From NCBI GenBank assembly GCA_963747595.1, contig CAVVFO010000002.1, forward strand, positions 1,227,508 through 1,291,507: a stretch of 64,000 nucleotides of DNA, written 5' to 3'. Made by a program: the position numbers and the translations under genes. The stretch is from an uncultured Gammaproteobacteria bacterium. Its GTDB lineage: Bacteria > Pseudomonadota > Gammaproteobacteria > Xanthomonadales > Rhodanobacteraceae. Every line of letters starts with the position of its first letter. Position 1 is the stretch's first letter. Shown here in pieces: positions 10,389 through 59,494 of the stretch. Below the pieces are notes generated by a model. It saw only the letters and a list, made by a program, of their open reading frames with translations. It was not told the origin of the DNA and searched no databases.

Positions 10389-10518
10389 TGCGGAGATTTG
10401 TTGCGTCGGAGCATGTTGCAAACGTGCCCGAGCACTCAAGTCGAATGGCGATTGTAACCGCAATGCGGCATACGTCGCTTTCAGGTTCCGCGGGAATGGT
10501 CCCGCAGGCCAAATCAAC

Positions 10519-10606
10519 GACACACACGTATCGGCACCGCCTTCGGGGTGCCCCGCCTGCCACGGCAGCGGGGTCGAAGTCGGGGATGCGTGGAGGTCCC
10601 AACCCC
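10519..10606 (+). ncRNA. rpsB 5' leader (t44 / S2 autoregulatory element)
   Basis: ACACACACGTATCGGCAC...GGGGTGCC...GGGGTCG...GGGATGCGTGGAGG..CAACCCC resembles the enterobacterial rpsB leader; directly upstream of rpsB. Confidence 0.8.
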
Positions 10607-29100: not shown

Positions 29101-29683
29101 GATCGTGGATCGCTACCAGCCGCCGGCACGCAAATCTCAGAACGACGACAAGAGCCGCTACCGCCGCGCGCCGGAAACGCCATGGACCGTCGCCGGCATG
29201 GTCACCGCGGTGCGCCGCCGCGGCGACAGCGCCGCCTTCGTGCGCCTGGAAGACGCCACCGGCTCGGTGGAACTGAGTTTCTTCCGCGAGGCGCTCACCG
29301 AGTACGGCCCGTTGCTGACCCGCGACGCCTTGCTGGTGGTCGACGGCGGCCTGTCCATCGACGATTTCTCCGGCGGCTTCCAGGTCCGCGCGCGCCGAGT
29401 GCTGGGTCTGAACGAAGCCTGCGAGCAACTGGCCGGACAGTTGCGGCTGCGCGTCAACGGCATCGGCCCGCCCTTCCTGGACGCGCTGCGTCAGGCCCTT
29501 GAGGCCTACCGCGGCGGCACCACACCGCTACGCCTGTCCGGCTACTGCAATGGCACCGCCCGTGCCGACCTGGACCTGGGGTCCGAATGGCGCGTGCGCG
29601 CCGCACCACAACTCCTGCGCGACCTGCGCGACCTGCCCGGCGTCACCGACGCCCAACTGCGCATGAACCGCCGCAGCGACTGA
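26189..29683 (+). CDS. dnaE: DNA polymerase III alpha subunit
   Basis: PHP domain HLHVHSEFSL, GPGRGSGAGSLV, PDFDIDF, FNKSHSAAY, OB fold; no intein-sized insertion. Confidence 0.98.
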   Translation: MSARFIHLHVHSEFSLVDSTIRIKALVEACVRADMPAVALTDVNNLFSLVKFYKAAQNAGIKPIVGCDVWMAAPSDPRPFRLTLLCQDRDGYLNLSRLISRAWLEGQHGGHALTDASWLDESSSRGLIALAGPDSAVARLATARPDAAELELRRLKRLFDDRLYLELVRTGRDSEPAWNAAALNLADTLELPVVASNDVRFLLREDFDAHEARVCINQGRILADPRRPRDYSAEQYLKSPEEMTALFEDLPEALENSVELAKRCNLELSFGTYFLPDFPIPAGYDLESYIRAQAREGLEQRLAVHPLAPGKTRADYDARLEKELDVILSMGFPGYFLIVADFIQWAKDNAIPVGPGRGSGAGSLVAWSLKITDLDPLPYELLFERFLNPERVSMPDFDIDFCMDRRDEVIDYVARKYGRDKVSQIITYGTMAAKAVVRDTGRVLGMGYGHVDSIAKLVPNTLGISLSEALKESAELKTRYDDEDEVRELIDLALKLEDLTRNAGKHAGGVVIAPTPLTDFSPLYAEEGGGGVVTQFDKNDVEDVGLVKFDFLGLRTLTIIDWAVKAINDRLENEGRDLLDITQLPLTDPETYALFARGDTVAVFQFESRGMRELLKRAQPDTFEDIIALAALFRPGPLGSGMDRDWTDRKHGLAEVTYPHPLLEPVLKPTYGVIVYQEQVMQIAQVLAGYSLGGADLLRRAMGKKKVEEMAKQRAIFEAGAAKNDIDPNVATAIFDLMEKFAEYGFNKSHSAAYALVAYQTAWLKKHYPAEFLAATLSSDMDNTDKVVNFLNECKAQGLTVQPPDVNDSVYMFTATAPDTIRYGLGAIKGVGEGACAAMAEERHRNGPYRDLADFCRRVEPSRFNKRVLDALIRSGAMDRLAPTRASLAAQLPEAMKAAEQHLRDQVSGQNDMFGSAGPAAITIELPTCPEWPLEQLLDGERDTLGHYLSGHPTDPWKDVLAQLATCPLGEIVDRYQPPARKSQNDDKSRYRRAPETPWTVAGMVTAVRRRGDSAAFVRLEDATGSVELSFFREALTEYGPLLTRDALLVVDGGLSIDDFSGGFQVRARRVLGLNEACEQLAGQLRLRVNGIGPPFLDALRQALEAYRGGTTPLRLSGYCNGTARADLDLGSEWRVRAAPQLLRDLRDLPGVTDAQLRMNRRSD

Positions 29684-29705
29684 CCCGCCGTGCCCCCGTA
29701 GGGCG

Positions 29706-30002
29706 TATATGGACTCCTCCTCCTACGCAAGCGTAAACGATGGGAAAGTGGCACCGCGAACGTATATACGGCTTCATGTTGGGAACCGTCGTTCCCGAGC
29801 CTAGATGGGTTGTTCGCACTGGAGCTGTCTTATCGGATCATCGACGCGTCGTGCGTCTGCGCCCTACGCGACGTTTGCTCCAGCGGGTGTGGGCCTTTTT
29901 TCCATCTTCCGATTGCGCTGCGAGATGTGCTTCCGTGCGGGTGAATCAAACGGTGTGACCTGATCTCAAGGTAATGGCTCTAGACGATGATGGCCTGATT
30001 CA
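29706..30002 (-). ncRNA. Candidate bridge/seek guide RNA region
   Basis: Segments match the target halves (29860-29867, 29834-29840) inside stem CTGGAGC/GCTCCAG and the circle-junction halves (29761-29767, 29738-29745); exact RNA ends unknown. Confidence 0.78.
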
Positions 30003-31097
30003 TCAGGCGGCGGCGGGATCGGCCCTGCGCCCGGCGGGGTGATAAGGGCGGTTGTGCTTGATCACGGCATAGATGATGCGCGCCAGGCGATTGGCCACGG
30101 CCACGGCGACCTTGGCGTCGAGTTTGCCGGCATCAAGCAGGCGCCGCGCGAACAGGCACAGGGCATCATCGCGCCTGCGGCAACGCACGAGCACGGCGTG
30201 CGCGCCTTGCACCAGAAGACGGCGCAGGTACGGGTCGCCCCGCTGGGTGATGAACCCCAGACGCCGCGTTTGCCCGCTGGAGGACTCTTTGGGCGTGAGA
30301 CCGAGGCTGGCGGCAAACTGGCGGGCATCGGCGAAGCGCTCCACCTGCGGGCCGATCTCGCCGGCCACGGCGGTGGCGGTGATCAGACCGACACCAAAGA
30401 TGGTCTCGACCTGTGTGGCCACGGCAGAGGCCTTGAAGGCCTCCTTCAACTGACGGTCCATGGCCTTGATATGCGTACGGACCTGATCCAGATGCTCCAG
30501 CGCCAATGCCACGCTGTGATGCAGTAACGGCGTGATCTCGCCGGTGTCATCCTGGCCATCGGCGGCCGCATGCACGCGCTGTATCAGGGCCTTGAATCCG
30601 GCGTCACCCTTGCCGCCCACCATGCCACGCTCGGCCAGCAGCCCGCGGATCTGATTGATGCACTGGGTCTGCTGGCCGATCAGCAGCTCGCGCACCCGAT
30701 GCTGGGCGCACAGATCCTGCTGCTCGAGCGTCTTGACCGGCACCGGGCGTACACGACGGTCGCAATACACCGCGTAGATCGCATCGGCATCGTTGCCGTC
30801 GGTCTTGTTGCCGTGCCGTGCCTTGTTCACGAACTGGGCTGGAAGCAGCTCAGTGGCATGGCTCCGCTGGCGCAGCTGGCGCGACCAGTGATGGGCGCTG
30901 CCACAGGCCTCCATGACGACCGTGCCGCGCGCCGTGTGCGCCTTGGCAAAAAACTCTTTGAACTGTGCACGGGTGTATGTGCGCTGGGCCAAACGCTCGC
31001 CGTGCGGGCCGAACGTGTGCACCTGAAACTTGGCCTTGGCCAGGTCCACGCAGTACACGCGCTGTGACGGCTGGGTGGTGTGGGCGGTAGTATGCAT
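30003..31097 (-). CDS. IS110-family DEDD/serine recombinase (transposase)
   Basis: RuvC-like DEDD residues (CVDLAK, VMEACG, KTDGNDADAI) and C-terminal LGLTPKESSSG with catalytic Ser; GDPYLRRLLVQGA. Confidence 0.95.
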   Translation of the reverse strand: MHTTAHTTQPSQRVYCVDLAKAKFQVHTFGPHGERLAQRTYTRAQFKEFFAKAHTARGTVVMEACGSAHHWSRQLRQRSHATELLPAQFVNKARHGNKTDGNDADAIYAVYCDRRVRPVPVKTLEQQDLCAQHRVRELLIGQQTQCINQIRGLLAERGMVGGKGDAGFKALIQRVHAAADGQDDTGEITPLLHHSVALALEHLDQVRTHIKAMDRQLKEAFKASAVATQVETIFGVGLITATAVAGEIGPQVERFADARQFAASLGLTPKESSSGQTRRLGFITQRGDPYLRRLLVQGAHAVLVRCRRRDDALCLFARRLLDAGKLDAKVAVAVANRLARIIYAVIKHNRPYHPAGRRADPAAA

Positions 31098-31191
31098 GTC
31101 GGACTCCTCTTCGCTGACAGGTAGGTTCTACGGAACTCCTACCCTAAAGGCACATCGATGCCGTCCTGGCGGGGAGGAGTCCATCCCATCA

Positions 31192-31449
31192 GATCAAGGA
31201 ACGATGAGTGACGGATCCGCCTGCTGGCCGGAAGCCACCCTGACGCCCCCAAAGCTGCTCCTGAATCGCCGCAGCGAGTAGAACAGCCGGCGGGCAGTGC
31301 CCGCCCTACACAATCGCAGGATCGTAGGGCGGGCACTGCCCGACGTCTTCCCTGCGCTGTAACGAGCCGACATTTGATTGCTCGCCGAAAACCACCTGAT
31401 TTCCCGCAAGCAGGCGGCTCCGTCACTGGCGTTCCTTGAGCCGCCCTGC
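31192..31449. repeat. REP cluster: remainder of the IS-split arm, nested short REP doublet, and right arm
   Basis: GATCAAGG...GACGGATCCGCCTGC (31192-31224); perfect 19-bp inverted pair CGGGCAGTGCCCGCCCTAC (31291-31309) / GTAGGGCGGGCACTGCCCG (31324-31342); right arm 31406-31449. Confidence 0.85.
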
Positions 31450-32534: not shown

Positions 32535-32658
32535 GTAGGGCGCATCAAGGAGCGTCCGCGACGGATCCGCCTGCTTTCCGGGGCTCGGTGGCTTGCGGTA
32601 AACCAACCGTCCCAGCGAAGCAGGCGGCTCCGTCGCTTTGCTCCTTGAGCCACCCTAC
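32535..32658. repeat. GTAG-type REP inverted doublet, copy 3
   Basis: GTAGGGCGCATCAAGG...GACGGATCCGCCTGCTT (32535-32576) and inverted arm ending CCTTGAGCCACCCTAC (32618-32658). Confidence 0.85.
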
Positions 32659-35643: not shown

Positions 35644-37787
35644 TCACGATCCTGTGCCGTAGTCGAATGCGGCGACCAGCGATTGATTGCTGGGCAGGTC
35701 ATCGCGCACCGCATCGATCTCGACGCGCACCGCACCGGCGCCACTGACGGATGGCGTCAGCGTGGTGTCGGTGATGCCGGTGGCGGTGCTGTCCAGCGAG
35801 CCGTCGAGATAGACGCGCACGGTGTAGGTGGTGCCGGCCTCGGGACCAATGTCGCCCTGCAGCGTATCGATCAGCTGGTCTGCCTGCGTGACGCGATCGC
35901 GATGCGACCATGTCAGCGTTAGCGGTGCGGTGACGGCTGCGGGATAGCGCTCGCCGTTGATTTGCAGATTGCCCGGCGGATATGGCCGCGCGGCGCGCTG
36001 GTCCAGCGTGGCTTGCGCGACGGGGGCCAGCGACATGTCCAGTTCGCCCAGGCCGGTGCGTGTCAGCAGCTTGGCATCGACCGTTTCACCGGTGGCGTAT
36101 TCGGTGGTATCCACGCCCGTGAAATGGTCGGTGAACCAAATGCGCGCGCCTTGTGCATGCGCTGCCGGCACCGTATCCACGCAGCCGCGGCCCAGGGTCA
36201 CGGCGCCGCTGCCCGCATCGATGGCATCCACGCGGCACAGCTCGTCATCGATGAGCGCCTCGGTGCCGACCTCCACCTGATCAAGATCCACGCCGTCGGT
36301 CACGATGATCGCGGTGTCGGCGGGGCCAATGACGGCCTGCAATAGCCCCTGCGGCGCGAAGTCGCCAGCGCCGACCTCGGCGTAGGCGCTGGCGCCGTCC
36401 ACCTGCGTCATCAGCGTGTAATCGTAGGCCACGCCTTGCGGCCGCCGCCCAAGGCGCCCACGTAGCCGGCGTCGGCATCCAGCGCGTCCAGGTTGGCGCG
36501 GCTCAGGCGAGCGGCAAGGTCGCGGTAGGACGACTCGTGCAGCACCTGCGCAGTGATCGGCAGCGGCTTGCTTTGCGGCTCGGTCCAGCCCTGGGTGTTG
36601 ACGGCGATGTAGCTGGCCGCCGGCAGGCCGAAGATGTCCTGCGCAAACTTGATGGTGACCGACTTGTCGCTGGGCTTGCCGTCCTGCACATCGATGATGC
36701 GCACCGGCATGTGTTCCACGCGCTGGCCGCCGAACGTGAAGCTGAAGGACATGACATCGCCGCGCAAAATGTCGGTGTCCGATGTCTGCACAACGACTTC
36801 GCCGGTGGCCAGCAGCGCGGACTGCGCGCGGCAATCGCGTTCCGCCAGGCGTGCGCCCAGCGCCGCATTCCATGCGCCGGGGTAGGCGGCCTGCTTGGCC
36901 ACGTCGGCGCCCTGGGCAAGGGCGTTGGCGAGGTTCTGCGCGGTGATGGATGCGTCCTTGTTTGTCGCGCTGTCGTGTAGGTGACCTGACCTGGTTGACC
37001 GTGCCATCGAGGGCCGCTTGATCGTAGCTTTTGAGCTGCACGATGTTGCTCTCGTCAAGCACCGGCAGCGTTGCGGGGTCGTAGTCATCGCGGATCAGGC
37101 GCAGGAAAGATTTGCCGGTGGACGGATCCTCAACAAACATGCCGGAGCAGTGGTCGCAGATGGTCTGAATGGCCTTGTTGACGCCGTCGCTTTTCGAGAA
37201 TTTCAGGCTAAGCCCGAGATTCTCGTCGAACAGCTGCTGCGCGGCGGCTTTGTGACGCACAAGATCGAGACGATCCGGCGACCAGCCCAATACCTCCACG
37301 CACAGCCGATAGATCCAGTGCGCGGGGTTGAGCCCCATGCCCGTAAGTCCCGGATAGCCGACCCCGGCCAGATCCGGCTCCCCCGCACCCGGCACGCGCC
37401 ACCCCGCCTTGATGGCACGCACCTTGTGCGACCAGGGCTTGATATAGGGGTTGAGCGCCGTGACGCGCCCATCGTAGACCAACGTGAGCAAACCGCGATT
37501 GGCGGACTGCGGCGCGCCGCGCAACAATTCCAGCAGCGCGTTGGGCTGCTGATCTGCCTCGCCCATGCAGATGTACAGATAGCCCTGCAGGCCGCCTTCC
37601 TTTTTCTCGCCGCCGAACAGGTTGGGGGCGTCGATATACACCGCTGGCTGGACGTGACATTGCCGGACCATGCAGTGCGGTCGCCCGCGCGCAGCTCCAG
37701 GTACGCATCCACCGGGCCGCGACACAAGCCGGCCTGCAGCGTCATGCTGTACCAGTACCCGATGGTGACCTTGCCGCCCTTACCCAG
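35644..37787 (-). pseudogene. Central tail-tip protein, broken by several frameshifts
   Basis: In-frame pieces KVTIGYWYSMTLQAGLCRGPVD, NPYIKPW, MNPAHWIY-like, DAKLLTRT, RAARPYPPGNLQING fall in different frames. Confidence 0.75.
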
Positions 37788-42458: not shown

Positions 42459-45400
42459 TCAGCCTCCGCTCACAAGATGCCGCACGGTGCTGCGGTTCTC
42501 GCTGATGATGTTGAGTACGTCGTCTTTGCCACCGCCGCCGGCCAGGTAGCCGTGCACCAGCTCTGGATCCACCACGTTGACGTTCCGGAAGTTGACCGAT
42601 GGCGCGGCGCCGCCGTGATGGCCTGCCGGGGACTGCAGGCGCGGGCGCGGGGATGAAGAGACATGCGGTGCCGGCACATCGCGCAGCGGATGCACCAGGC
42701 CGCCATCGGCATAGCCGGCGGCATAGTTGGCGATCGCGGCCATGCCCTGGCGGTGGAAATCGCGCATGAACCCCAGCGCGCCGGGCTGCGACACCACATG
42801 CGCGGGCTGCACATACTCGCCGGCATGCACCACGCCGGCGACGTCATAGGTGCCGCCCGCGCCGGTGTAGCCGCCCACTGCAAATGCCGCGAACGAACCG
42901 GCAAGGTTCGCTGCAAGCTGGGTTTCAGCGGCCTTCTGCAGTTTGTCCGCGTTCGCTCCAAGCAGTTCGCTGCTGAAGAACAGCGCACCGCTGGCAACCG
43001 TGAGCTTGCCCGCGCCCTTGCTGACATCGGCACTCTTCTTGTTATTGCCGAACAGACTGCCCAGCGCATCCACGGCCTTGGCCGCCAGCGCCCGCGCTGC
43101 AACCTGCGCCAGGCTCTGCTCGATGCTTTGCGCCAGCGTCTGGAATGCTCCCGCAACGGTCAGCGTGCCGCTGGCGAGCCCTTGAAGCGCTTTGCTCAAA
43201 CCGCCTTCAAAGCCACTTTCAGCAGCCTGTACAAGGTCGTTGACGTGCAGCTTGAGCTGGCCTATATGAACCTGTAGATCTTTCAGCTTCTGCACAGAGC
43301 GCGGGTCACCAATGGCGGCCGTGAACGCTTTGTACTTGGGCACAATAATGTCCAGCTGTTCGCCCGTTTTCTGATTGATCGCAACAATGCGTTGCCGCGC
43401 CGTGTATCCACTGATGAGTCCAGCCTGCTGTTCGGACTGAATGCTCTGCAGTTCCGGCTTCGATTCGAGAGGATCTGCTGCACCTCGCGCTGCAACTTCT
43501 GCAGCTGTGCACGCGCCTCCTGCACATTGATCAGCTTCTTCACCAGCGCCACGCCGGCGGTATCGCCCTGGCGCTGCAGGTCTGCCAGCAGCTGGCCGTA
43601 CTGCTGCTCGATCTTTATCTTCTGTGCCTTGGCCTGGTCGCCGGTGGCACTGGCCAGTGCGGCGGTGAGGTTGTTGTGCACCTTGGCGATGGCGCGGTTT
43701 TTGGCCTGGTTGGCCAGGTCCACGGCCTGGGCCACTTGCGCCTGCACCTGGGCCACATCGGCGCCGTTGGCGATGGCCTTGCCGCCGGCCTGCGCGGCCT
43801 GGCGCACGGACTTTGCGTACTTGTCCCAGGCCGCGCTCACCGGCCCCAGCGCGTTGCTGCCCAGCGAGCTGATGATATTGGCCAGCCGCTGCTGCGCCGT
43901 GGCCGCGGCCTTGGCTTGCGCAAGCGCCTTGCGCTGCGCTTTCTCGGCGCCGTGATCGGTGTATTTCTTGTTGGTCTCTGCGACCAGTTTTTGGTAGTAG
44001 CTTCCGGTGATGGGGCCGTTGGCCGGCGCCTGGATGCCGTGCAGGTTGGGGTCGTTGGGGTTGGCCGCGTAGGCCGCACGCAGCTGCTTGTTCAGCTTGA
44101 TCAGGGCGTTGGTCTTGGCGGTGGTCTTGTCCAGGCTGTTGGCGATGCCGGTGAGGAACGTATCGGCTTCGATGCCCTTTTGCTGCACCTGATCCGGCGC
44201 GCTCTGCTGGTGCGCGTGCGCAATCTCATTGCGGCGTTTGGCCTCCAGCGCCAGCAGCTGTTGTTTGGCCTGCGCCAGTTCCTGCTTGAGCTGCGCCGTG
44301 GGCTTGCCGAAACCAAACGAGACGATGGTATGCCGGCCGTTCTCGCGGTCGCTGATGGTTTTTGTGAGCGAGGTGATCTTTTGCAGCTGGGTATCAATCT
44401 CGGCGGATGTGCCGCTGCGCCCAATGGAGAGGATTGCATCCTCCACGGTCTGCAGATCGTTCTTGAACTCGTGCATGAAGCTTTGCAGCGCGCCAAGGTG
44501 CTGGCGCAGTTCATCGCTGCGCTGGTTGATGGCGTTGGCATAACTGTCGGTGGCCAGCTTGGCTGCGGCCTCCGTGTTGCCCTGCTCCTGCAACGCCTGG
44601 ATCTGCTCATACACGGCCGCCGTGAGGTAGTGGTATTGCGTGTTGAGCGCGGCGCTGGCCTTGGCCGGGGCGTCCTTGAGCTTCACGAACTGCTTCACCG
44701 TGGTGCCGATGGCCTGGCCGGTGGTCTCCTCCATGTTGACGGCTGCCGCGCCGATGGCCTGCAGGTCTGGCGGTGAAACGGCCCGTGGCGATCAGCTGGC
44801 TCAGCGCGGTACGTGCATCACGGATGCCCACGCCGGTGCCGGCGATGCTCTGCGCCATCGCGTCCACGCTTCCCGCCGTCTGCCCGGCATAATTGCCGGT
44901 TATCTTGATCTGCGCGTTGAGCTTCTCCTGCTCATCCAGCCCCTTGACGTAGGCCGCCGCCAGCCCCACCAGCACGCCGGCCACACCCAGAATGGCCACG
45001 CCCTGCGCGCTGAACGCCTTGCTCAGCAAACCGCTGTAGTTGGCCAGGGTCAGGGAGCTTTGCGTCAGCCGGCCGTATTGGCCGGTGGCCAGGTCCTTGG
45101 CCAGAAAGCCGAACTCGCGGCGCGCATTGGCCGAGTTGAAGCTGAACTTGTGCACCGCCTTGTTGGTGCGCGTGAGCGCATCACGGCTGGCGTTGATCTT
45201 GGCGCTGAATACGCCGAAGTCCTCAGCACCCAGCAGGCCGGCCTTGCTGAACTTGCCCAGCTTGCTTTCCAGCTCATCGAACTTGCCCAGCTTGGCGCCC
45301 ACCGGGTCGATCTGCCCCAAAAGATCCGCCAGCGCGGCGGTCTGTGCTCGTGTTGCACGGGTGGATTTTCCAGCCGATGTGCTCAGCCCTTCTACCTCTG

Positions 45401-51919: not shown

Positions 51920-53143
51920 TCACTCGGCGCCCCACCACAGCAGGCCGCGGCGCTGCCGGTTGATGTACTTGCGGTCGCCGGTGGCAAACGCGGTCCAGCC
52001 GACAAAGCTGCCATCGCGCTGATCGGCCACCAGCAGCACAATGCGGCCGTGCTTGAGTTGATAGCCCTTGATGAGGCGCGCGCGCACGCGGTGGATGCCC
52101 GTGTCCGCTGCACGCTCCATGTCGACCCATACCTCAAAGGGGTCGGACAACAGGTCGATGAGCAGCGGCAAGTACGGTGAGCGCGCCGGATCCAGATGCG
52201 GTCCAATCACGTCCGCATCCAGTGCGATCGGCAGATCATGCACGTCAAATACACGGTTGTCGCCGCCCAGCAGATCCTTGAGCGCCTGGGTGGTGGCCCG
52301 CGCATCCGGAAAGCGCGGCCCCAGCGGAACAGGGGCCGGCGCTAGCGGAATGCGATCGGGCCGGCCTAGATCGCGCCATGTGGTCCCCAGCACGTCATCC
52401 CATGATGCCGTGGCCTGCGCGCCAGCGGTGGCCACATCGCGCGCCACGTGCTCGCGCAGCCAGGCATCGCGTCCCGGCGTGTAGCCAAAGCCCGGGTCAA
52501 TGCCCGCCGGCGTCTCCACGGTGCGCGGCGAGGGTCCGCGCACGCCGACGGTATGTGTTTCGGTACCATCGTCCGGCGCGGTATCCGGGCCGGACTTTCC
52601 CATGCGCGCGAGGTCCCGCGCGTTGAGCGCGTCCACGGTGCACTGGCAGCCCCAGCCGCCGGGCGGAAAATGTGCCTGCCACCACGGGTCATCCGCATGC
52701 AGTACCAGGCCATCCCATGATTCATGCAGCGGGCGCGGGTGTTTCTCGCCATCGGCATGGCGGTAGCGCCAGTACGGACGCACGGTCTTGACGCGCTGCA
52801 GCTGCGCGTAACGGCCGGCGGCGTAGCTGGTGCGCAGATTGGTCTCGTAGATGACCCGGCTGCGCCAGTTGCGCCCGCCGTTGTAGTCCCAGCCGTAGCG
52901 CGCGACGATCGCATCGAAATCCTTGCGGAAGGTGGCCAGCGAGGTGCCCTGCGAGATGGCCTTGTCTACTGCGGCACGGAAGTCCGCCACAAGGTCCGCG
53001 CGATTGGCGCCGGCCACCACGAACGCGTGGTCGTGCGCCTCATTGAGGATGTCCGTCCAGCTGTGGGTGGGCAGGTTGACCTTGGCGCGCAGGAACGCGA
53101 TCTGCTCGCTGAAAGGGAGCGACCCGTAGGAGGCATCAGCCAT
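51920..53143 (-). CDS. MuF (gp30) head morphogenesis protein with C-terminal PBECR2-like extension
   Basis: IYETNLRTSYAAGR, HPRPLHESWDG, HFPPGGWGCQC MuF motifs; tail LSDPFEVW...GWTAF..RKYINRQRRGLL. Confidence 0.85.
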   Translation of the reverse strand: MADASYGSLPFSEQIAFLRAKVNLPTHSWTDILNEAHDHAFVVAGANRADLVADFRAAVDKAISQGTSLATFRKDFDAIVARYGWDYNGGRNWRSRVIYETNLRTSYAAGRYAQLQRVKTVRPYWRYRHADGEKHPRPLHESWDGLVLHADDPWWQAHFPPGGWGCQCTVDALNARDLARMGKSGPDTAPDDGTETHTVGVRGPSPRTVETPAGIDPGFGYTPGRDAWLREHVARDVATAGAQATASWDDVLGTTWRDLGRPDRIPLAPAPVPLGPRFPDARATTQALKDLLGGDNRVFDVHDLPIALDADVIGPHLDPARSPYLPLLIDLLSDPFEVWVDMERAADTGIHRVRARLIKGYQLKHGRIVLLVADQRDGSFVGWTAFATGDRKYINRQRRGLLWWGAE

Positions 53144-53306
53144 GTCGCCGCTCACGCAGCGCCGCGTCCCAGCCTGCCTTGAATGCTTCTACGAGACGGT
53201 TTTCCAGATACTCCGACCGCGGCGCGCCCGCCTTGCAGCGCTCGGCCACGTCGGTGACCAGCCACGCATCGCGGGCTTTGGCCAGGTCGCTGCGCTGGTC
53301 GCTCAT
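53136..53306 (-). CDS. Small hypothetical protein (56 aa) between portal and MuF
   Basis: ATGA overlap with the portal stop and ATGGCTGA overlap with the MuF start; MSDQRSDLAKARDAW...AFKAGWDAALRERRHG. Confidence 0.6.
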   Translation of the reverse strand: MSDQRSDLAKARDAWLVTDVAERCKAGAPRSEYLENRLVEAFKAGWDAALRERRHG

Positions 53307-54868
53307 GAGGCACCCGCCTCCTTCAGCAGCTCGTAACGCCCGGCCAGTGCGGCCGCTGCCAGTGCCTGCTGCATGGCACCCGTGTACTCATCCAGGCTCA
53401 TGTCCGGCATCAGCTGCATCAGGCCATCGCGCAGGCCCTGCATGTCGTCGGCAGTTTCGGCCAGGTGCCGGATCTTGCCGATCCACGCATCCACGGCGGG
53501 CGAAACCTGGGCGCTGGCGCGTCCGGCCATGCGTTGCGCGGCATCGGGCAGCACGTCGCTGGCGGCGGCAAATGCGGCGCTGGTGCCATCGGAGGCGTTG
53601 GCCGGCGGCAGGCCCGTGGCCGGTGGCTGGCCGGCGGCCGATTGTCCCTGTGGCGCCTGCGCCGGCGGGGTCGGCTGCGCTTGCTCTTCCCAGCCCTCGC
53701 CGTAGGTCTCCTGAATATATGACAACGTGGGTTTGAAACCCATGTCAAACACCGTTTTATCGCGCGTTGCAAGCAGATCCATGTCTTCAGGCGGATCCAC
53801 CACGCGGTACACGCGCGGCGGCTTGGCGTTGGGAAAGTTCCACTCGGTCAGCCAGCGCGCCGGGCCGGTGTTCCAGCTCTCGCACACCAGGTCTGAATCG
53901 GCCTTGATGATGTCGGCGCGGGTGTCGTCGTGGGTCTTGTCCGATCCCAGGCGCCCGGAGGTCTGCATGATGGTGGCCGTCTGCCCCAGCACGATGCGGG
54001 AAATGGCCTCATCCATCGTGGTGTGCAGGTCTTTGTAATCCGCCGTGCCGGAGCGCGCGGCCTCGATCAGCTCCACCGCCATGCCGTCGGGCATGATCAC
54101 GCCGGCATCGGTGGTGATGGCGCTCACCGCGTTGAGCAACGCCTGTTTTTCATCGGCGCCGGCGCCGGAGGGATAGCTGCCCTTGGCGGTGGGCATGCCG
54201 AACTTCTCCAGGAAGATCAGCCAGAACTTCATGTCCTGGCGCTTGAACAGCACTGGCCAGTACAGCCAGTGCGCAAGGCCCAGTCCATACGGCTCATCAT
54301 CGTGATCGGCGCCCACCTCGAAATGCCAGAAGTAGGGCGGCTCGGCGGGCAGGCCGTGCAGCATGTGTTCGTAGGTCAGCAGCCGCAGGTGGCCTTTGTT
54401 GTCGAAGCGGAACCGGCGGCGATGGCGCACGCGGCATTCATCAAGCGTGATCTGCGCGCCATCGCGCGCATAGATCAGCTCGGACACCGCGTAGCCGTAG
54501 AACACGCCGAACAGCATCTTTTTGGTGACGTTGTCCCAGCCGATGTGATGCAGCTGCTGCTTCATGAACTCGGCGGCTTTCTTGTCCTGGCGCGATGGGC
54601 CACCAGGCTCCACGCTCCACTCGCACTTGGTCACCGCCAGCTGGCGTTGCTCCAGCGCGCCCTTGACCATCGCATCAGAGAGCACGCTCTCGTACAGGCG
54701 CAGGTCGAATCCGCTGCGATCGCGCAGCACCGTGTCATACGGCTCAAGGAGTGGCCCAAGGTAGCCGCGGGTGATGTCCTGCCCGTTGGTGATCACCGCG
54801 ATTTCGCGGTTGATCTGCGGGTTGCCCCTGGTCAGCTTGTCTTCACGGGTCTGTTCGCTCATCCCCAA
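53303..54868 (-). CDS. Portal protein (Mu gp29, DUF935)
   Basis: KMLFGVFYGYAVSE, WLIFLEKFGMP, SRIVLGQT, DIIKADSDL. Confidence 0.9.
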   Translation of the reverse strand: MGMSEQTREDKLTRGNPQINREIAVITNGQDITRGYLGPLLEPYDTVLRDRSGFDLRLYESVLSDAMVKGALEQRQLAVTKCEWSVEPGGPSRQDKKAAEFMKQQLHHIGWDNVTKKMLFGVFYGYAVSELIYARDGAQITLDECRVRHRRRFRFDNKGHLRLLTYEHMLHGLPAEPPYFWHFEVGADHDDEPYGLGLAHWLYWPVLFKRQDMKFWLIFLEKFGMPTAKGSYPSGAGADEKQALLNAVSAITTDAGVIMPDGMAVELIEAARSGTADYKDLHTTMDEAISRIVLGQTATIMQTSGRLGSDKTHDDTRADIIKADSDLVCESWNTGPARWLTEWNFPNAKPPRVYRVVDPPEDMDLLATRDKTVFDMGFKPTLSYIQETYGEGWEEQAQPTPPAQAPQGQSAAGQPPATGLPPANASDGTSAAFAAASDVLPDAAQRMAGRASAQVSPAVDAWIGKIRHLAETADDMQGLRDGLMQLMPDMSLDEYTGAMQQALAAAALAGRYELLKEAGAS

Positions 54869-56478
54869 CCTCCAAAGTCTTGACGGCCCGGCACCACGCC
54901 AAACCCGCGGTCCATCTGCAGTGGCGCGGGGATATCGCCGGACAGGCTGGCGCGGCGGCCGGTGGATTGATATTCGATGGGTGCGGACAGGTTGCGGCTG
55001 GCGTAATGCATCAGCGCGATGCTGATGGCCGCATCGCCGTGGCGCTTGCCGCCGTCCTTGCCGGTGGAGCGTTGATCGGGCACGCGGGCCACGCCGCGGA
55101 TCAGCTTCAGCAGGCGCAGGTCGGAGGCCGTGTCCGCGTCGCGCGGTATTTCGATGGTGGCATCCTCGAACGCGGCCTTGAGCGGCGGCATCTGCTCGCG
55201 GTACCAGGTCTCGGAGAGCTTCACCAGCTCGATGCGTGCATAGCCGTAGCGCTGCGCCATGAACTCGGCCACGGCGCTTCCGTTGCCGCCGGCATCAAAG
55301 GCGCCCTTGGCGAAGTTTGGCAATCGGTCGCCGATGAAGAACAGCACCTGCTCTTGCTGGCGGTGCGGCATGTTGCGCAGCTCCAGCATGAACGGGATGC
55401 GCCGCGTCAGCGTCTGCCCGATCTGCGCCGGCGTGATCACGGTCAAGTCACCCGTGCGGCCAAAGTCCTCGCCCAGCACGCTCTGCAGGCGCGGGTCCAG
55501 CTCGGCCAGCAGCGGCGCCACTTCCAGATCCAGCCAGCCCTGGATGACGGCATGGCGGTGCACGTCCGGCTCTTTCTCGAATCCCTTGGGGCAGGTATAA
55601 CGCAGCACCGGCACGCCGATCATGCGCGCCTCGATCAGCACACCGGACAGCCAGGTGCCGGAGCCTTGCGACGGGATCACGTCCAGCTCTTCGCTGGCAG
55701 CATCGCCGTACGTGTTGCGGATCGCCGTCACCCAGGCGTTTTCGGTGTCCTGCGTCCACGCCTTGTGCTGGCGCAGGCTGACGCGCTGAAACAGGCCCTC
55801 GACCACGGCCTCATCAAAGGTGATGCGGTGCACGCTGCCGGCGCGCTTGCCGGCGCGGATATCCTCGATCAGCTGGTTGAACGCATTGTCCACGCCGTTG
55901 TGCGTGGAGATGATGCGCACCTTGCCGCCCCACATCAGCAGCGCGATTGCGGCCTTGAGCAGTTCATCCAGCTGGCCGTGGAACGCGGCCTCATCGATCA
56001 CCACCACGCCCTGCTTGCCGCGCAGGTTGGCCGGCCGGCTGGACAGCGCCACGATGCGGAAGTTGGATGCAAAGCGGATGGTGTAGGTCTTGATGGCCTT
56101 GTCGTCTTTGCCATCGGTGAAGATCTCCTCGCCTTCCTCGATCTCGCCGGCCGCCTGGTGAAACGTGCGCGCCCACATGGCGCAGGCCTCGATGTACTCG
56201 ATGGCCATGTCCATGTTGTAGCCGATGTAGTACACGTTCTGGCCGCCAGCGGACCGAGCGGCGCCGGCAATCAGCACATCGTCGCCGGCCTCGGCCCAGG
56301 TGAGGCCGGTGCGGCGGCTTTTCTCGGCCACCTTGAGGTCGCTTTCATCCTCCACCCAGCGCTTCTGGTACGGCAGGAACGCGGCCGGCACATCGCTATC
56401 GGCGGTGCTGGGGATGTCGTCCCGCAGCTTGTTGTCAACAGCCGCTGATACGGGACGCTTGGCGACAGAGGTGCTCAT
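54859..56478 (-). CDS. Terminase large subunit (Mu gp28-like)
   Basis: LPYQKRW, EKSRRTGLTW, NLRGKQG.VVIDEAAFH, ISTHNG, GEDFGRTGDL, HGDAAIS. Confidence 0.93.
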   Translation of the reverse strand: MSTSVAKRPVSAAVDNKLRDDIPSTADSDVPAAFLPYQKRWVEDESDLKVAEKSRRTGLTWAEAGDDVLIAGAARSAGGQNVYYIGYNMDMAIEYIEACAMWARTFHQAAGEIEEGEEIFTDGKDDKAIKTYTIRFASNFRIVALSSRPANLRGKQGVVVIDEAAFHGQLDELLKAAIALLMWGGKVRIISTHNGVDNAFNQLIEDIRAGKRAGSVHRITFDEAVVEGLFQRVSLRQHKAWTQDTENAWVTAIRNTYGDAASEELDVIPSQGSGTWLSGVLIEARMIGVPVLRYTCPKGFEKEPDVHRHAVIQGWLDLEVAPLLAELDPRLQSVLGEDFGRTGDLTVITPAQIGQTLTRRIPFMLELRNMPHRQQEQVLFFIGDRLPNFAKGAFDAGGNGSAVAEFMAQRYGYARIELVKLSETWYREQMPPLKAAFEDATIEIPRDADTASDLRLLKLIRGVARVPDQRSTGKDGGKRHGDAAISIALMHYASRNLSAPIEYQSTGRRASLSGDIPAPLQMDRGFGVVPGRQDFGGWG

Positions 56479-57029
56479 GCGATGCCCAGAATCTCTTTGC
56501 GGATGGTCTCGGTGGCGCTGGCGCTCAGGCCGCCGGACTTGGTCACGGCCTTGAGCTTTTCATCCTGCTCGGCCTGCAGCTCCTCGCGCGCCAGGCGTTT
56601 GATCTGCTGGCGCTCGGCCAGGCTCATCTTGCGGGCCTCCAGCACGGCGCGGGCGCCGCGGGCCAGCTCGCCCACTTCCTTGATGCTCAGGGCGTCGGCA
56701 TCCGGATCGGTCGCGCTCAGCGCGGCGTGCGTGGCCAGCGTGGTCACCGCCTGCACCAGCAGCTGGCCGGCGCGGTCATCGGGGTCTTCGCCGAGCTCCG
56801 CCACCAAGGACGTGCCGGCGGCCTGGATATCGCGCATGCGCCCGGCCAGCTCGTCCACGTGCTGCTTGTAACGGCCCAGGCTGGAGCGGCTGGGCGGCGC
56901 GGCACCCGGGAACTTGGCGCGGATGGCGGCCAGCATACCGTCCAGCGTCAGCCGGTCCTCGCGCAGCAGCTTTTCCACATAGCGGCGCTGCGCGTCCGGC
57001 AGCGTCTTGATTTTGGAACGGCGCGGCAT
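56475..57029 (-). CDS. DUF3486 (Mu gp27-like, probable small terminase)
   Basis: MPRRSKIKTLP, PSRSSLGRY, IRKEILGI. Confidence 0.85.
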   Translation of the reverse strand: MPRRSKIKTLPDAQRRYVEKLLREDRLTLDGMLAAIRAKFPGAAPPSRSSLGRYKQHVDELAGRMRDIQAAGTSLVAELGEDPDDRAGQLLVQAVTTLATHAALSATDPDADALSIKEVGELARGARAVLEARKMSLAERQQIKRLAREELQAEQDEKLKAVTKSGGLSASATETIRKEILGIA

Positions 57030-57328
57030 CAGTGCGGGCTCGGCTGGCTCACGCCGGGGGCCATCGCGCGGCCGGCGGCCACGTCGTCGCCGCGCGCGGT
57101 GATGGTGGCCACCTCCACGCCGGGCACGGCTTCTTCCACGCGTACCAGGTTCTGCTCGGCCAGCCAGTGCAGATCGGTCAGCACGTGGTCGCGCGTGGTG
57201 ACCACGCCCAGGTGCTGCAGTCCGGCGTGGATGTTGCTGGAGTTGAGCCGGTAACCCGGCTGCTCGCGCAGCAGGCGCAGCACCACCAGTCGGCGGTCCT
57301 CGCGCAAACGGTCCTCGAACGATTTCAT
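57029..57328 (-). CDS. Mu gp26-like winged-helix protein
   Basis: EDRRLVVLRLL, DLHWLAEQNLV, TARGDDVAAGRA..PGV. Confidence 0.82.
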   Translation of the reverse strand: MKSFEDRLREDRRLVVLRLLREQPGYRLNSSNIHAGLQHLGVVTTRDHVLTDLHWLAEQNLVRVEEAVPGVEVATITARGDDVAAGRAMAPGVSQPSPH

Positions 57329-57651
57329 GATTCCTTCTCCAGCAGGTGTTTCTGAATGGATTGCAGCAGCTGCACGGTGGTCTGGTTCTGCCCGTGCACG
57401 GTGCTGACGGTTTCGCGGAAGGCCTCGATGTGCTCGCGCAGGCGCTGCAGGTCGCCTTGCGTGGGCAGGTACTCGATACGCATCTCCACGGTATGCACGC
57501 GCCGCTCCAGCGAGATGGAGGCCTCTTCCATCGCCTTGCAGTTGTCCTGATACCCGCCCATGCGCCTGGCCAGCGCCATCTGGCCAAACAGGTTGATGAT
57601 CAGCAACGCAATGACGATGCCGGCGAGGATGACTGCCAGCGTGATATTCAT
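57325..57651 (-). CDS. Membrane-anchored coiled-coil protein (DUF2730-like)
   Basis: N-terminal TM helix, LPTQGDLQRL, IQKHLLE. Confidence 0.65.
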   Translation of the reverse strand: MNITLAVILAGIVIALLIINLFGQMALARRMGGYQDNCKAMEEASISLERRVHTVEMRIEYLPTQGDLQRLREHIEAFRETVSTVHGQNQTTVQLLQSIQKHLLEKES

Positions 57652-58727: not shown

Positions 58728-59494
58728 CGGCACACCGCCTTGCCTTCCCATCCGTCGGCGATGTACGCAGGCTCCAGCACCGTCAAAATGTGGCGCACGT
58801 AGTGGCGGTTCTGGCGGTAGTTGGGCAGGCTGCGATCACGGAACATCGCAGTATTGCGGAACCATCGCGTGCCGTCGTATCCGGCGCGCTCGGCCAATGC
58901 CTGTTCATGGTGTAGGCGCACGCCGCCACCGTTGTAGGCCGAGAGCGCAAACGCCCATGTAGAGCACGGCGTGGCGCCGTGGTGGCGATCCACCAGCCAC
59001 TTGTCATAGATGGCGGCAGCCATCGCCGCCTGCTGCGGATCCCACGGGTCAAAGTGCCCCAGCTGGTCCGGGAACTGCTGTGCAATCCAGCGCGCCGTGC
59101 CAGGCATGAACTGCGCCAGGCCTTCGGCGCCCACGGCGCTGCGCGCATGCGGATTCCAGCTTGATTCCTGATGCAACTGCGCGGCCAGACGCGCCGGCGA
59201 GGCTTTCACGCCGAACTGCTCCACCGCGGCCTGATCCACATAGTGGCGGTACAGCGCACTGGCGGGTGGGATCTGTACGCGGTGATGCGTCACGGCCGCG
59301 TGAGCGGGCAGCGACAGCATCAGACAGCCGAGAAGGATGAATGCCACGCAGCAGATCGTGTGGATATGACGCCACACCTGCGCGAACTTGAGGTTGCTCT
59401 CGCGCGGAATGCGGCGCGCAATCAGCGCGTACAGGCCAAGCGCAAGGCAGCCACAGGCCATCAGGTACTTGAAAACGATCAAGGCGAGGATCAC
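58724..59494 (-). CDS. Lytic transglycosylase endolysin with N-terminal hydrophobic segments
   Basis: HQESSWNPHARSAVGAEGLAQFMPGTA SLT motif, ALSAYNGG; signal-peptide-like ILLGCLMLSLPAHA. Confidence 0.88.
   Translation of the reverse strand: MILALIVFKYLMACGCLALGLYALIARRIPRESNLKFAQVWRHIHTICCVAFILLGCLMLSLPAHAAVTHHRVQIPPASALYRHYVDQAAVEQFGVKASPARLAAQLHQESSWNPHARSAVGAEGLAQFMPGTARWIAQQFPDQLGHFDPWDPQQAAMAAAIYDKWLVDRHHGATPCSTWAFALSAYNGGGVRLHHEQALAERAGYDGTRWFRNTAMFRDRSLPNYRQNRHYVRHILTVLEPAYIADGWEGKAVCR

What the first reader, a model, noticed from the sequence alone, without database searches (positions are those of the whole stretch)
29819..29883. Readable target-binding loop of a bridge/seek RNA programmed for the REP
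Seen: a 7-bp stem (CTGGAGC 29819-25 / GCTCCAG 29877-83) encloses an internal loop capped by hairpin GACGC/GCGTC (29843-29857). On the transposase-sense strand, one side reads GUAGGGCG (29867-29860), identical to the left target flank. The other side reads UGAUCCG (29840-29834), complementary to CGGATCA of the right flank. The two guides overlap on a CG core. Known: IS110/IS1111 recombinases are guided by non-coding RNAs whose loops pair with both target strands. Inference: a natural RNA-guided recombinase with target GTAGGG-CG-GATCA, potentially reprogrammable. The family mechanism is described, but I cannot tell whether this element or specificity is.
Basis: partly seen in the sequence, partly recalled or inferred. 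Interest (0 to 1): 0.9.

Follow-up and report, generated by a model that had tools for sequence, protein, structure and literature searches.

The report
Guide RNA loop of a REP-targeting IS1111 element
The stem-loop is very likely the target-reading loop of the guide RNA ("seekRNA" or "bridge RNA") of an intact IS1111-type insertion sequence sitting in a repetitive palindrome between dnaE and accA; the reading is correct, but the mechanism was published in 2024, so this is a new example rather than a new system.

Summary
Every coordinate, the stem, the hairpin and both short matches are in the sequence as described.

The region lies in the 297-nt non-coding tail of a 1486-bp IS110-family element of the IS1111 group (window 29706-31191, minus strand). 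The element has a DEDD transposase and perfect 12-bp subterminal inverted repeats, and it splits a REP unit GTAGGG-CG-GATCAAGG.

In 18 related elements (34-61% transposase identity) the same two-stem-loop RNA is conserved, with 16 pairs showing compensatory change. The two loop segments change together with each element's own flanks: 123 of 142 positions match, against 57±8.5 when flanks are permuted, and 0 of 200,000 permutations reach the observed value.

A second loop reads the element's own ends (CCCAUC / AUAUACG), as a donor-binding loop would. The guide order (top-strand match 5' of bottom-strand match, overlapping on the core) is the one published for IS1111 seekRNAs.

No RNA data exist for this element, so expression and activity are inferred.

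Verdict: an apparently undescribed member of a known kind. Interest is modest.

The parts
29706..31191 (-). Whole insertion sequence, 1486 bp counting one copy of the core. In tnp sense it reads TG-ATGGG-sTIR ... sTIR-ATA.
   Evidence: Boundaries come from the split REP and from identical end architecture in 16 relatives including ISPa25.
30003..31097 (-). Transposase/recombinase, 364 aa. DEDD residues D18, E63, D100, D103; C-terminal motif G266-L-x-P269-x4-S274-G275.
   Evidence: Pfam PF01548 + PF02371. NCBIfam NF033542 at 265 bits against a cut-off of 140. These residues are invariant or nearly invariant in 14 aligned relatives.
31173..31184 (.). Subterminal inverted repeat at the left end (tnp sense): ATGGACTCCTCC.
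   Evidence: Perfect 12-bp inverted repeat I7; the same 12-mer is found in 12 metagenomic relatives and in ISPa25.
29709..29720 (.). Subterminal inverted repeat at the right end (tnp sense): GGAGGAGTCCAT.
29743..29893 (-). Predicted long seekRNA / bridge RNA, about 150 nt, made of two stem-loops that each carry an internal loop.
   Evidence: Covariance model R1 scores 138 bits here, and matches at E <= 1.4e-06 lie 3' of tnp in the 17 metagenomic loci searched and, in a separate search, in ISPa25. 92.5% of cells are paired and 16 pairs show compensatory change.
29819..29883 (-). Target-binding stem-loop (the finding): outer stem, internal loop, apical hairpin GACGC/GCGUC.
   Evidence: The outer stem (helices 1-2) and apical stem (helix 4) covary. 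A ~93% variant in run X3 carries the compensatory pair 29822 G>A with 29880 C>T.
29860..29867 (-). 5' target guide GUAGGGCG, complementary to the tnp-sense top strand CG-CCCTAC (core plus right flank).
   Evidence: Matches 8/8 here. The equivalent segment matches its own core and flank at every readable position in 10 of the 15 relatives whose right junction can be read, after a one-column shift for L019 (8/8 where eight are readable).
29834..29840 (-). 3' target guide UGAUCCG, identical to the tnp-sense top strand TGATC-CG, so it pairs with the bottom strand of left flank plus core.
   Evidence: Matches 7/7 against the rejoined target. The flank part matches 4-5 of 5 in 11 of 13 elements (the window and 12 relatives), and 3 of 5 in the other two.
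29756..29817 (-). Second, donor-binding stem-loop: outer stem GCGAAC/GUUCGC, inner stem GGCU/AGCC, hairpin GGGAAC-GACG-GUUCCC.
   Evidence: helices 5-7; 6 of 6 pairs of helix 7 covary.
29804..29809 (-). 5' donor guide CCCAUC, complementary to G-ATGGG at the left end of the element.
   Evidence: Read by eye. It covaries with the left end: ATGGG pairs with CCCAU, ATGGT with ACCAU (L009, L011), ATGGA with UCCAU (ISPa25), and TGATGA/G with UCAUCA (L014-L021).
29761..29767 (-). 3' donor guide AUAUACG, identical to the right end ATATA plus the core CG.
   Evidence: It reads AUAUAUG in L009 and L011 (core TG) and AUACAUG in L014-L021 (right end ATACA-TG).
29698..29705 (+). REP half-site GTAGGGCG, including the core CG at 29704-05. 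This is the right target flank in tnp sense.
   Evidence: The contig of the high-copy X3 variant ends exactly 8 nt beyond the element at this word.
31192..31235 (+). Remainder of the split REP: GATCAAGGAACGATGAGTGACGGATCCGCCTGCTGG. This is the left target flank in tnp sense. It is preceded by CA at 31190-91, which is the left-end core TG.
   Evidence: Compared with intact REP copies at 1334, 32535, 32646 and 31437.
29725..29730 (-). Candidate -35 box TTGCGT of a junction promoter. In a circularised element, 17 nt further on, the sequence would read TA|TG|AT = TATGAT.
   Evidence: A conserved TTGCNN or TTGACA hexamer sits 19 nt from the right end in 16 of 17 elements, ISPa25 being the exception (TTGACG, 16 nt). 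Junction promoters are described for this family (PMC11187229; PMC12288879). This is inference only.

Best explanation
Window 29819-29883 (minus strand) encodes the target-binding loop of the guide RNA of an intact IS1111-group (IS110-family) insertion sequence.

The RNA is about 150 nt and lies in the 3' non-coding region. It is probably co-transcribed with tnp and then processed. It folds into two stem-loops.

In the first loop, GUAGGGCG pairs with the top strand of core plus right half-site (CG-CCCTAC). UGAUCCG pairs with the bottom strand of left half-site plus core (TGATC-CG). Together they specify the REP sequence CCTTGATC-CG-CCCTAC, which is GTAGGG-CG-GATCAAGG on the window + strand.

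In the second loop, CCCAUC and AUAUACG read the element's own left and right ends.

The DEDD/Ser recombinase bound to this RNA would synapse a circularised element with the REP and recombine at the YG core.

Shown here: the anatomy, conservation of the structure, covariation of the guides with the flanks and with the element ends, and the catalytic motifs. Inferred from the family: that the structure acts as RNA, that it binds the transposase, the circular intermediate with its junction promoter, and programmability.
For: (1) All coordinates are verified, and both guides together arise in 6e-5 of shuffles.

(2) The element is complete. It has a transposase with Pfam and NCBIfam IS110 matches and invariant DEDD and GL-P----SG residues. 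It has a perfect 12-bp sTIR. It interrupts a REP whose intact copies read GTAGGGCGGAtCAAGG.

(3) Model R1 finds the same RNA 3' of tnp in 18 elements and in ISPa25, where it scores 79 bits.

(4) Structure: 92.5% of cells are paired against 33-42% for slid controls, 16 pairs show double changes, and 0 of 500 shuffles reach the observed values. There are 23 G-U cells against 5 A-C cells, which points to the tnp-sense strand.

(5) Guides against own flanks: 123 of 142 positions match, against a permuted mean of 57±8.5 and maximum of 105, with 0 of 200,000 permutations reaching 123. Within the close subgroup, p is about 7e-5 for the left side and 6e-4 for the right. Examples are L004/L008 (GUAGGUCG with CG-ACCTAC), L019 (10 + 7 nt on an unrelated target) and L021 (8 + 8 nt).

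(6) The donor-loop guides covary with the element's ends and core.

(7) The layout equals that of the experimentally validated IS1111 seekRNAs: top-strand match 5' of bottom-strand match, overlapping, with long forms of 145-170 nt (PMC11187229). Bridge RNAs were predicted in the right end of 93% of IS1111 elements (PMC11208160).
Against: There is no transcript evidence. Only DNA metagenome runs hold this sequence, no sigma-70-like promoter was found inside the element, and there is no Rfam family for it.

Folding energy alone is unremarkable (z = -1.8 and -1.2).

Some relatives match imperfectly. The L015 right side matches 1 of 6. L008 and the X3 variant carry UGAGCCG next to a TGATC flank. 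The ISPa25 5' guide did not line up simply with its attC flank.

The left-junction core is TG, although all the RNA guide segments that specify both core bases say CG.

Only one copy is in the window, so activity of this copy is unproven.
Confidence: 0.9

Rival explanations
1. The same segments act as single-stranded DNA guides rather than RNA. This would resemble IS200/IS605, where subterminal DNA hairpins pair with the target during replication or excision.
For: Sequence analysis cannot tell RNA from DNA. G-T wobbles are also tolerated in DNA hairpins, and no RNA data exist.
Against: For four IS1111 and two IS110 members the non-coding region gives an RNase-sensitive species that co-purifies with the transposase and is required in trans (PMC11187229; PMC11208160). 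ISPa25, whose NCR-encoded seekRNA was predicted, not tested, in that study, shares this element's ends and RNA model. NCBIfam names the protein family RNA-guided.
Confidence: 0.04
2. The stem-loop is only a 3' UTR stabiliser or terminator of tnp, or a terminator for dnaE read-through on the + strand. On this view the resemblance to the flanks is a REP fragment captured inside the element, or chance.
For: A terminator-like site is called on the + strand at 29871-29900. GTAGGGCG is a REP head word that occurs 7 times in the window.
Against: The internal sequence diverges from the REP straight after the 8-mer, and the second match is 19 nt away on the other side of a hairpin. Chance is 6e-5. In relatives with unrelated, non-REP targets the same two loop positions match those targets (L019, L021, L016, L014). 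The loop segments vary while the stems are kept by compensation.
Confidence: 0.03
3. The anatomy is right, but this copy is a fixed, inactive relic.
For: There is one copy in 64 kb, the two cores disagree (TG/CG), and no empty-site or circle reads were seen.
Against: The ORF, both sTIRs and all four guides are intact. Word depth over the element is about twice that of its flanks in run X1, and a ~93% variant stands at roughly 10-fold depth in X3. This rival concerns activity, not identity.
Confidence: 0.25

Closest known systems
ISPa11 (IS1111 family, P. aeruginosa), with an experimentally validated seekRNA (Siddiquee et al. 2024, PMC11187229)
   Same: It targets a REP at a fixed position and orientation. 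Its seekRNA is encoded 3' of tnp, and its top-strand and bottom-strand matches overlap in the target.
   Different: It has a different host, REP and guide words. The sequence relation to ISPa11 was not measured here because no ISPa11 sequence was in hand.
ISPa25 / IS1111-attC group (ISKpn4, ISPst6)
   Same: The sTIR is identical (ATGGACTCCTCC / GGAGGAGTCCAT), and the end extensions (TG-ATGGx......ATA-CG) are the same type. Its 3' non-coding region matches RNA model R1 at 79 bits, and it carries the same donor guide AUAUACG. The transposase is 40% identical.
   Different: ISPa25 targets integron attC sites, whereas this element targets a REP. The left-end fifth base and its guide differ in step (ATGGA/UCCAU against ATGGG/CCCAU).
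IS621 bridge RNA (IS110 group; Durrant et al. 2024, PMC11208160; Hiraizumi et al. 2024, PMC11208158)
   Same: It has two internal loops that read target and donor on both strands around a 2-nt core, a DEDD + Ser recombinase, and a REP target.
   Different: In IS621 the RNA lies 5' of tnp in the left end, the sTIR is only 2-3 bp, and the guide order is reversed. In this element the core is YG rather than CT.
ISEc11 / ISXne4 natural reprogramming (PMC11187229)
   Same: Related transposases keep conserved RNA stems while the guide segments are swapped to match different targets. This is the same pattern seen here across L002-L021.
   Different: The series here is larger (about 10 distinct targets) and comes from uncultured metagenomic elements. 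Nothing in it has been tested experimentally.

Membership tests
IS110 family transposase | N-terminal RuvC-like DEDD domain (PF01548) and C-terminal PF02371 domain | tested here: met
   (E = 5.6e-12 and 6e-22). (NF033542, 265 bits against a cut-off of 140). D18, E63, D100 and D103 are invariant in 14 sequences.
IS110 family transposase | Conserved GL-P----S(T)G motif carrying the catalytic Ser (PMC11187229) | tested here: met
   G266-L-T-P269-K-E-S-S-S274-G275. G266, P269, S273 and G275 are invariant and S274 is at least 90% conserved.
IS1111 group | Subterminal inverted repeats of 7-17 bp with short terminal extensions | tested here: met
   A perfect 12-bp inverted repeat lies 3 nt (right end) and 5 nt plus core (left end) from the element's ends.
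IS1111 group | The longer non-coding region lies downstream of tnp | tested here: met
   297 nt on the 3' side (29706-30002) against 94 nt on the 5' side (31098-31191).
IS1111-type seekRNA / bridge RNA | [quoted passage not shown] | tested here: met
   GUAGGGCG (top-strand match) is 5' of UGAUCCG (bottom-strand match), and they overlap on CG.
IS1111-type seekRNA / bridge RNA | Guides covary with insertion sites among relatives | tested here: met
   (0 of 200,000 permutations reach the observed value).
IS1111-type seekRNA / bridge RNA | Conserved secondary structure supported by compensatory changes, including a second loop that reads the donor ends | tested here: met
   Donor-guide covariation was read by eye.
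IS1111-type seekRNA / bridge RNA | The RNA is made, co-purifies with the transposase and is required for transposition | not testable with these tools
   No RNA runs hold the sequence.
IS110/IS1111 transposition | The same 2-nt core flanks the integrated element on both sides | tested here: inconclusive
   Here the cores are TG (left end) and CG (right end). Among relatives, CG/CG occurs 4 times (L002, L010, L012, L013), discordant TG/CG or TG/CA 4 times (this window, L004, L008, L007), and TG/TG 8 times.
IS110/IS1111 transposition | A circular intermediate with a junction promoter | not testable with these tools
   The sequence is compatible with one (TTGCGT-17 nt-TATGAT across the junction). 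No circle junction appears in the contigs.
Rfam RNA families | A match to a curated covariance model | tested here: not met
   Nothing overlaps the finding or the rest of the non-coding region, even at E <= 1. The only hit above threshold in the whole window is t44, elsewhere. No Rfam family matched this RNA; whether one exists for it was not checked.

The most novel reading that the evidence does not exclude
The discordant core may be informative. In the window element and four relatives, the left-end copy of the core is TG, although the guide segments that read the first core base all specify CG. The 5' donor guide reads only the second core base and places a U (a C in L007) opposite the first.

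One reading is that in this clade the first core base on the left-end side travels with the element and is not checked by the RNA. It might be kept as T because T completes a TATGAT -10 box of the junction promoter. That would mean an asymmetric or offset strand exchange that differs from the IS621 model.

Separately, the clade shares one set of donor ends but has at least about 10 natural target specificities, including REP and attC. That would make it a ready-made orthogonal guide series.
Probability: 0.25. Interest if true: 0.45.

Novelty: new member of a known kind. Interest (0 to 1): 0.3.

Why it matters
The finding gives a fully parsed natural example of an IS1111-type RNA-guided recombinase: element ends, core, both target guides and both donor guides. 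It comes with a set of about 17 relatives whose guides and targets change together while the donor ends stay constant. That set is useful as annotation ground truth and as candidate material for engineering bridge or seek recombinases. It does not change understanding of the mechanism, because RNA guidance, the 3' location in IS1111 elements, REP targeting and natural reprogramming were all published in 2024-2025.

Tried and rejected
- **Exact-protein lookup:** the window transposase is not on record.
- **Species-representative genomes:** a single-protein scan of genome contigs returned only one relative, L001, whose non-coding region is cut by the contig end.
- **Plasmid DNA search:** blastn against plasmids found only short transposase-gene fragments. 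tblastn gave relatives no closer than about 40%.
- **Rfam:** no family matched.
- **Promoter scan:** no internal sigma-70 site was found.
- **RNA-seq:** no RNA runs hold the sequence.
- **Guide variant in run X3:** I tried to use the variant (29837 A>C) as a within-lineage covariation case. Its one visible flank is still GATCAA, so it is neutral or slightly against.
- **Weak second RNA-model hit:** the hit at 58879-59030 (13 bits, E = 0.08) lies inside the prophage and was dismissed as noise.
- **The 72-aa + strand ORF at 29740-29958:** rejected as coding, because relatives differ there by 1-2-nt indels.
- **Helix 3 of the RNAalifold consensus:** this helix lies inside the 5' guide and was rejected (69% paired, no covariation).

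Full report
**1. The observation**

One search shows every item at the stated coordinates.
- The stem is CTGGAGC 29819-25 with GCTCCAG 29877-83.
- The hairpin is GACGC 29843-47 with GCGTC 29853-57.
- The minus strand reads GUAGGGCG at 29867-60 and UGAUCCG at 29840-34.

The minus-strand minimum-free-energy fold contains this stem, the apical hairpin and a mostly open internal loop. The energy itself is not exceptional (z = -1.8; -1.2 for the whole non-coding region). Both words together occur in 6e-5 of 200,000 shuffles of the 297-nt non-coding region.

**2. Context**

dnaE ends at 29683 and accA (Pfam ACCA) follows at about 31.5 kb. Between them lies a 1486-bp element, 29706-31191, on the minus strand. 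It has three defining features.
- A 364-aa transposase at 30003-31097, with PF01548 + PF02371 and NF033542 "IS110 family RNA-guided transposase" at 265 bits.
- A perfect 12-bp subterminal inverted repeat, ATGGACTCCTCC at 29709-20 and 31173-84.
- A long non-coding region 3' of tnp (297 nt against 94 nt on the 5' side).

D18, E63, D100, D103 and the G266-L-x-P-x4-S274-G275 motif are conserved in 14 relatives. This is the motif described for the family in PMC11187229.

**3. The target**

The window holds a REP family, GTAGGGCGGAtCAAGGAgC...GACGGATCCGCCTGC, with copies at 1334, 32535, 32646 and 31437. The element splits one copy. GTAGGGCG (29698-29705) lies on one side and GATCAAGGAACGATGAGTGACGGATCCGCCTGCTGG (31192 onward) on the other. 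An intact ...GTAGGGCGGATCAAGGAACG... is also seen as a loose end in a related metagenome.

In tnp sense the rejoined target is CCTTGATC-CG-CCCTAC. The actual junction reads CA-GATCA.

**4. Relatives**

A profile scan of metagenome contigs gave L002-L021, and the plasmid collection gave ISPa25.

Twelve metagenomic relatives and ISPa25 share the same sTIR and the same end architecture: left flank-[YG]-ATGGx-sTIR ... sTIR-ATA-[core]-right flank. A more distant group (L014-L021) has a different sTIR but the same plan.

**5. RNA structure**

An alignment of the 3' non-coding regions (A2) gives a consensus of two stem-loops, with 14 of 27 pairs showing compensatory change.

The covariance model R1 finds the motif 3' of tnp in 18 elements at 31-138 bits and in ISPa25 at 79 bits.

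On the 18-sequence alignment:
- 92.5% of cells are paired, against 33-42% when partners are slid.
- 16 pairs show double changes.
- 0 of 500 shuffles reach the observed values.

This alignment was fitted to the model, which favours the structure. However, the independent MAFFT and RNAalifold result agrees. G-U cells outnumber A-C cells 23 to 5, so the structure belongs to the tnp-sense strand.

**6. Guides and flanks**

At the alignment columns of GUAGGGCG and UGAUCCG, each relative carries words that match its own junctions.

| Element | 5' guide | 3' guide | Own flanks |
|---|---|---|---|
| L002 | GUAGGGUG | GCUCCCG | CG-CCCTAC (one G-U); TGCTCC-CG |
| L004 | GUAGGUCG | – | CG-ACCTAC |
| L008 | GUAGGUCG | – | CG-ACCTAC |
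| L007 | GUAGGGUG | GGUUCCG | CA-CCCTAC; GTTC |
| L011 | CAGGCGCA | UAGCGUG | TG-CGCCAT; GTAGCG-TG |
| L021 | GACUCGUCA | UCGCAAUG | TG-ACGAGT; CTCGCAA-TG |
| L019 | UAACCGGACA | AUUGCUG | TG-TCCGGTTA; CATTGC-TG |
| L016 | UUUCUUACA | – | TG-TAAGAAA |

Counting flank positions only, own pairs match at 123 of 142 positions. The permuted mean is 57±8.5 with a maximum of 105, and 0 of 200,000 permutations reach 123. I shifted the L019 register by one column by hand. Within the close subgroup alone, p is about 7e-5 for the left side and 6e-4 for the right.

There are exceptions. The L015 right side matches 1 of 6. L014 and L016 match 3 of 5 on the left. L008 and the X3 variant carry UGAGCCG beside TGATC, a one-base mismatch.

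**7. The second loop**

In window 29756-29817, the 5' side CCCAUC (29809-04) is complementary to G-ATGGG of the left end. The 3' side AUAUACG (29767-61) equals the right end ATATA plus CG.

Both change with the ends in relatives, as read by eye:
- ATGGT with ACCAU.
- ATGGA with UCCAU (ISPa25).
- TGATGA/G with UCAUCA.
- ATACA-TG with AUACAUG.
- Core TG with AUAUAUG.

This is the donor-binding loop of the bridge-RNA model (PMC11208160).

**8. Comparison with what is known**

Siddiquee et al. (PMC11187229) showed several things for ISEc11, ISPa11 (a REP-targeting element), ISKpn4 and ISPst6.
- The 3' non-coding region yields RNAs of 70-100 nt and 145-170 nt that co-purify with the transposase.
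- These RNAs carry a top-strand match 5' of a bottom-strand match, and the two overlap in the target.
- They can be reprogrammed, and natural reprogramming occurs (ISEc11 against ISXne4).

Durrant et al. predicted bridge RNAs in the right end of 93% of IS1111 elements. Every sequence-level defining feature is met here. Only expression and function are untested.

No near-identical element was found in PLSDB, the GTDB representatives (best 55%), the metagenome set (best 61%) or the exact-protein index. The element is therefore probably unnamed. ISfinder could not be queried.

**9. How it most likely works**

This section is inference from the family. A circularised element would bring a conserved -35 box (TTGCGT, 29730-25) to 17 nt from TA|TG|AT = TATGAT (junction promoters are described). 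That promoter would drive tnp and the downstream RNA. The processed RNA would bind the recombinase. The first loop would pair with both strands of the REP around CG, the second loop with the element's joined ends, and recombination would occur at the core.

**10. An unexplained detail**

The left-end copy of the core is TG in this element and in L004, L005, L007 and L008, while the guide segments that read the first core base all say CG. CG/CG and TG/TG elements also exist. The 5' donor guide places a U (a C in L007) opposite the first core base in this group.

**11. Verdict**

This is a new member of a known kind, and the interest is modest.

Noticed in passing
window ~33000-57600, minus strand: A prophage begins just downstream of accA. 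It encodes a tail protein (35644-37725), tape measure (43283-44734), minor head protein (51920-53155), portal (53303-54868), large terminase (54859-56478) and small terminase (56475-57587) (PHROGs; Pfam TMP_2). A REP pair at 32535/32646 lies at its edge.
   Followed up: partly
window 31190-31191 against 29704-29705; L004, L005, L007, L008: The two copies of the core that flank the element disagree: TG at the left end and CG at the right end. The RNA specifies CG in the guide segments that read the first core base. With T, the circle junction would form a TATGAT -10 box; with C it would read TACGAT.
   Followed up: partly
window 31285-31348: A second REP type, GTAGGGCGGGCACTGCCCG, occurs as an inverted pair (31291-31309 minus, 31324-31342 plus). 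It shares the GTAGGGCG head with the targeted REP but lacks the GATCA half-site, and it is uninterrupted.
   Followed up: partly
run X3 laid on window 29698-31197: A hypersaline-lake metagenome holds a ~93% variant of the element at roughly 10-fold the depth of its flanks. It carries a compensatory stem change and a one-base guide change (UGAUCCG to UGAGCCG, the same guide as L008). Its visible flank is still GATCAA.
   Followed up: partly
window 10503-10603, plus strand: Rfam t44 sRNA match above threshold: 68 bits against a gathering score of 44.
   Followed up: no
L006 1933-2069: One relative has a deletion that removes the 3' donor guide of the second loop, and it lacks a recognisable right-end sTIR. 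It is probably a decayed copy.
   Followed up: no
L026 (ISPa25, NZ_CP137509) 1805-1948: The ISPa25 3' guide CUUGAACG fits its left flank CCTTGAG-TG with one mismatch outside the core. Its 5' guide UAACAAUG does not align simply with the attC flank CG-ACTTGTTA; a 2-nt offset is needed.
   Followed up: no
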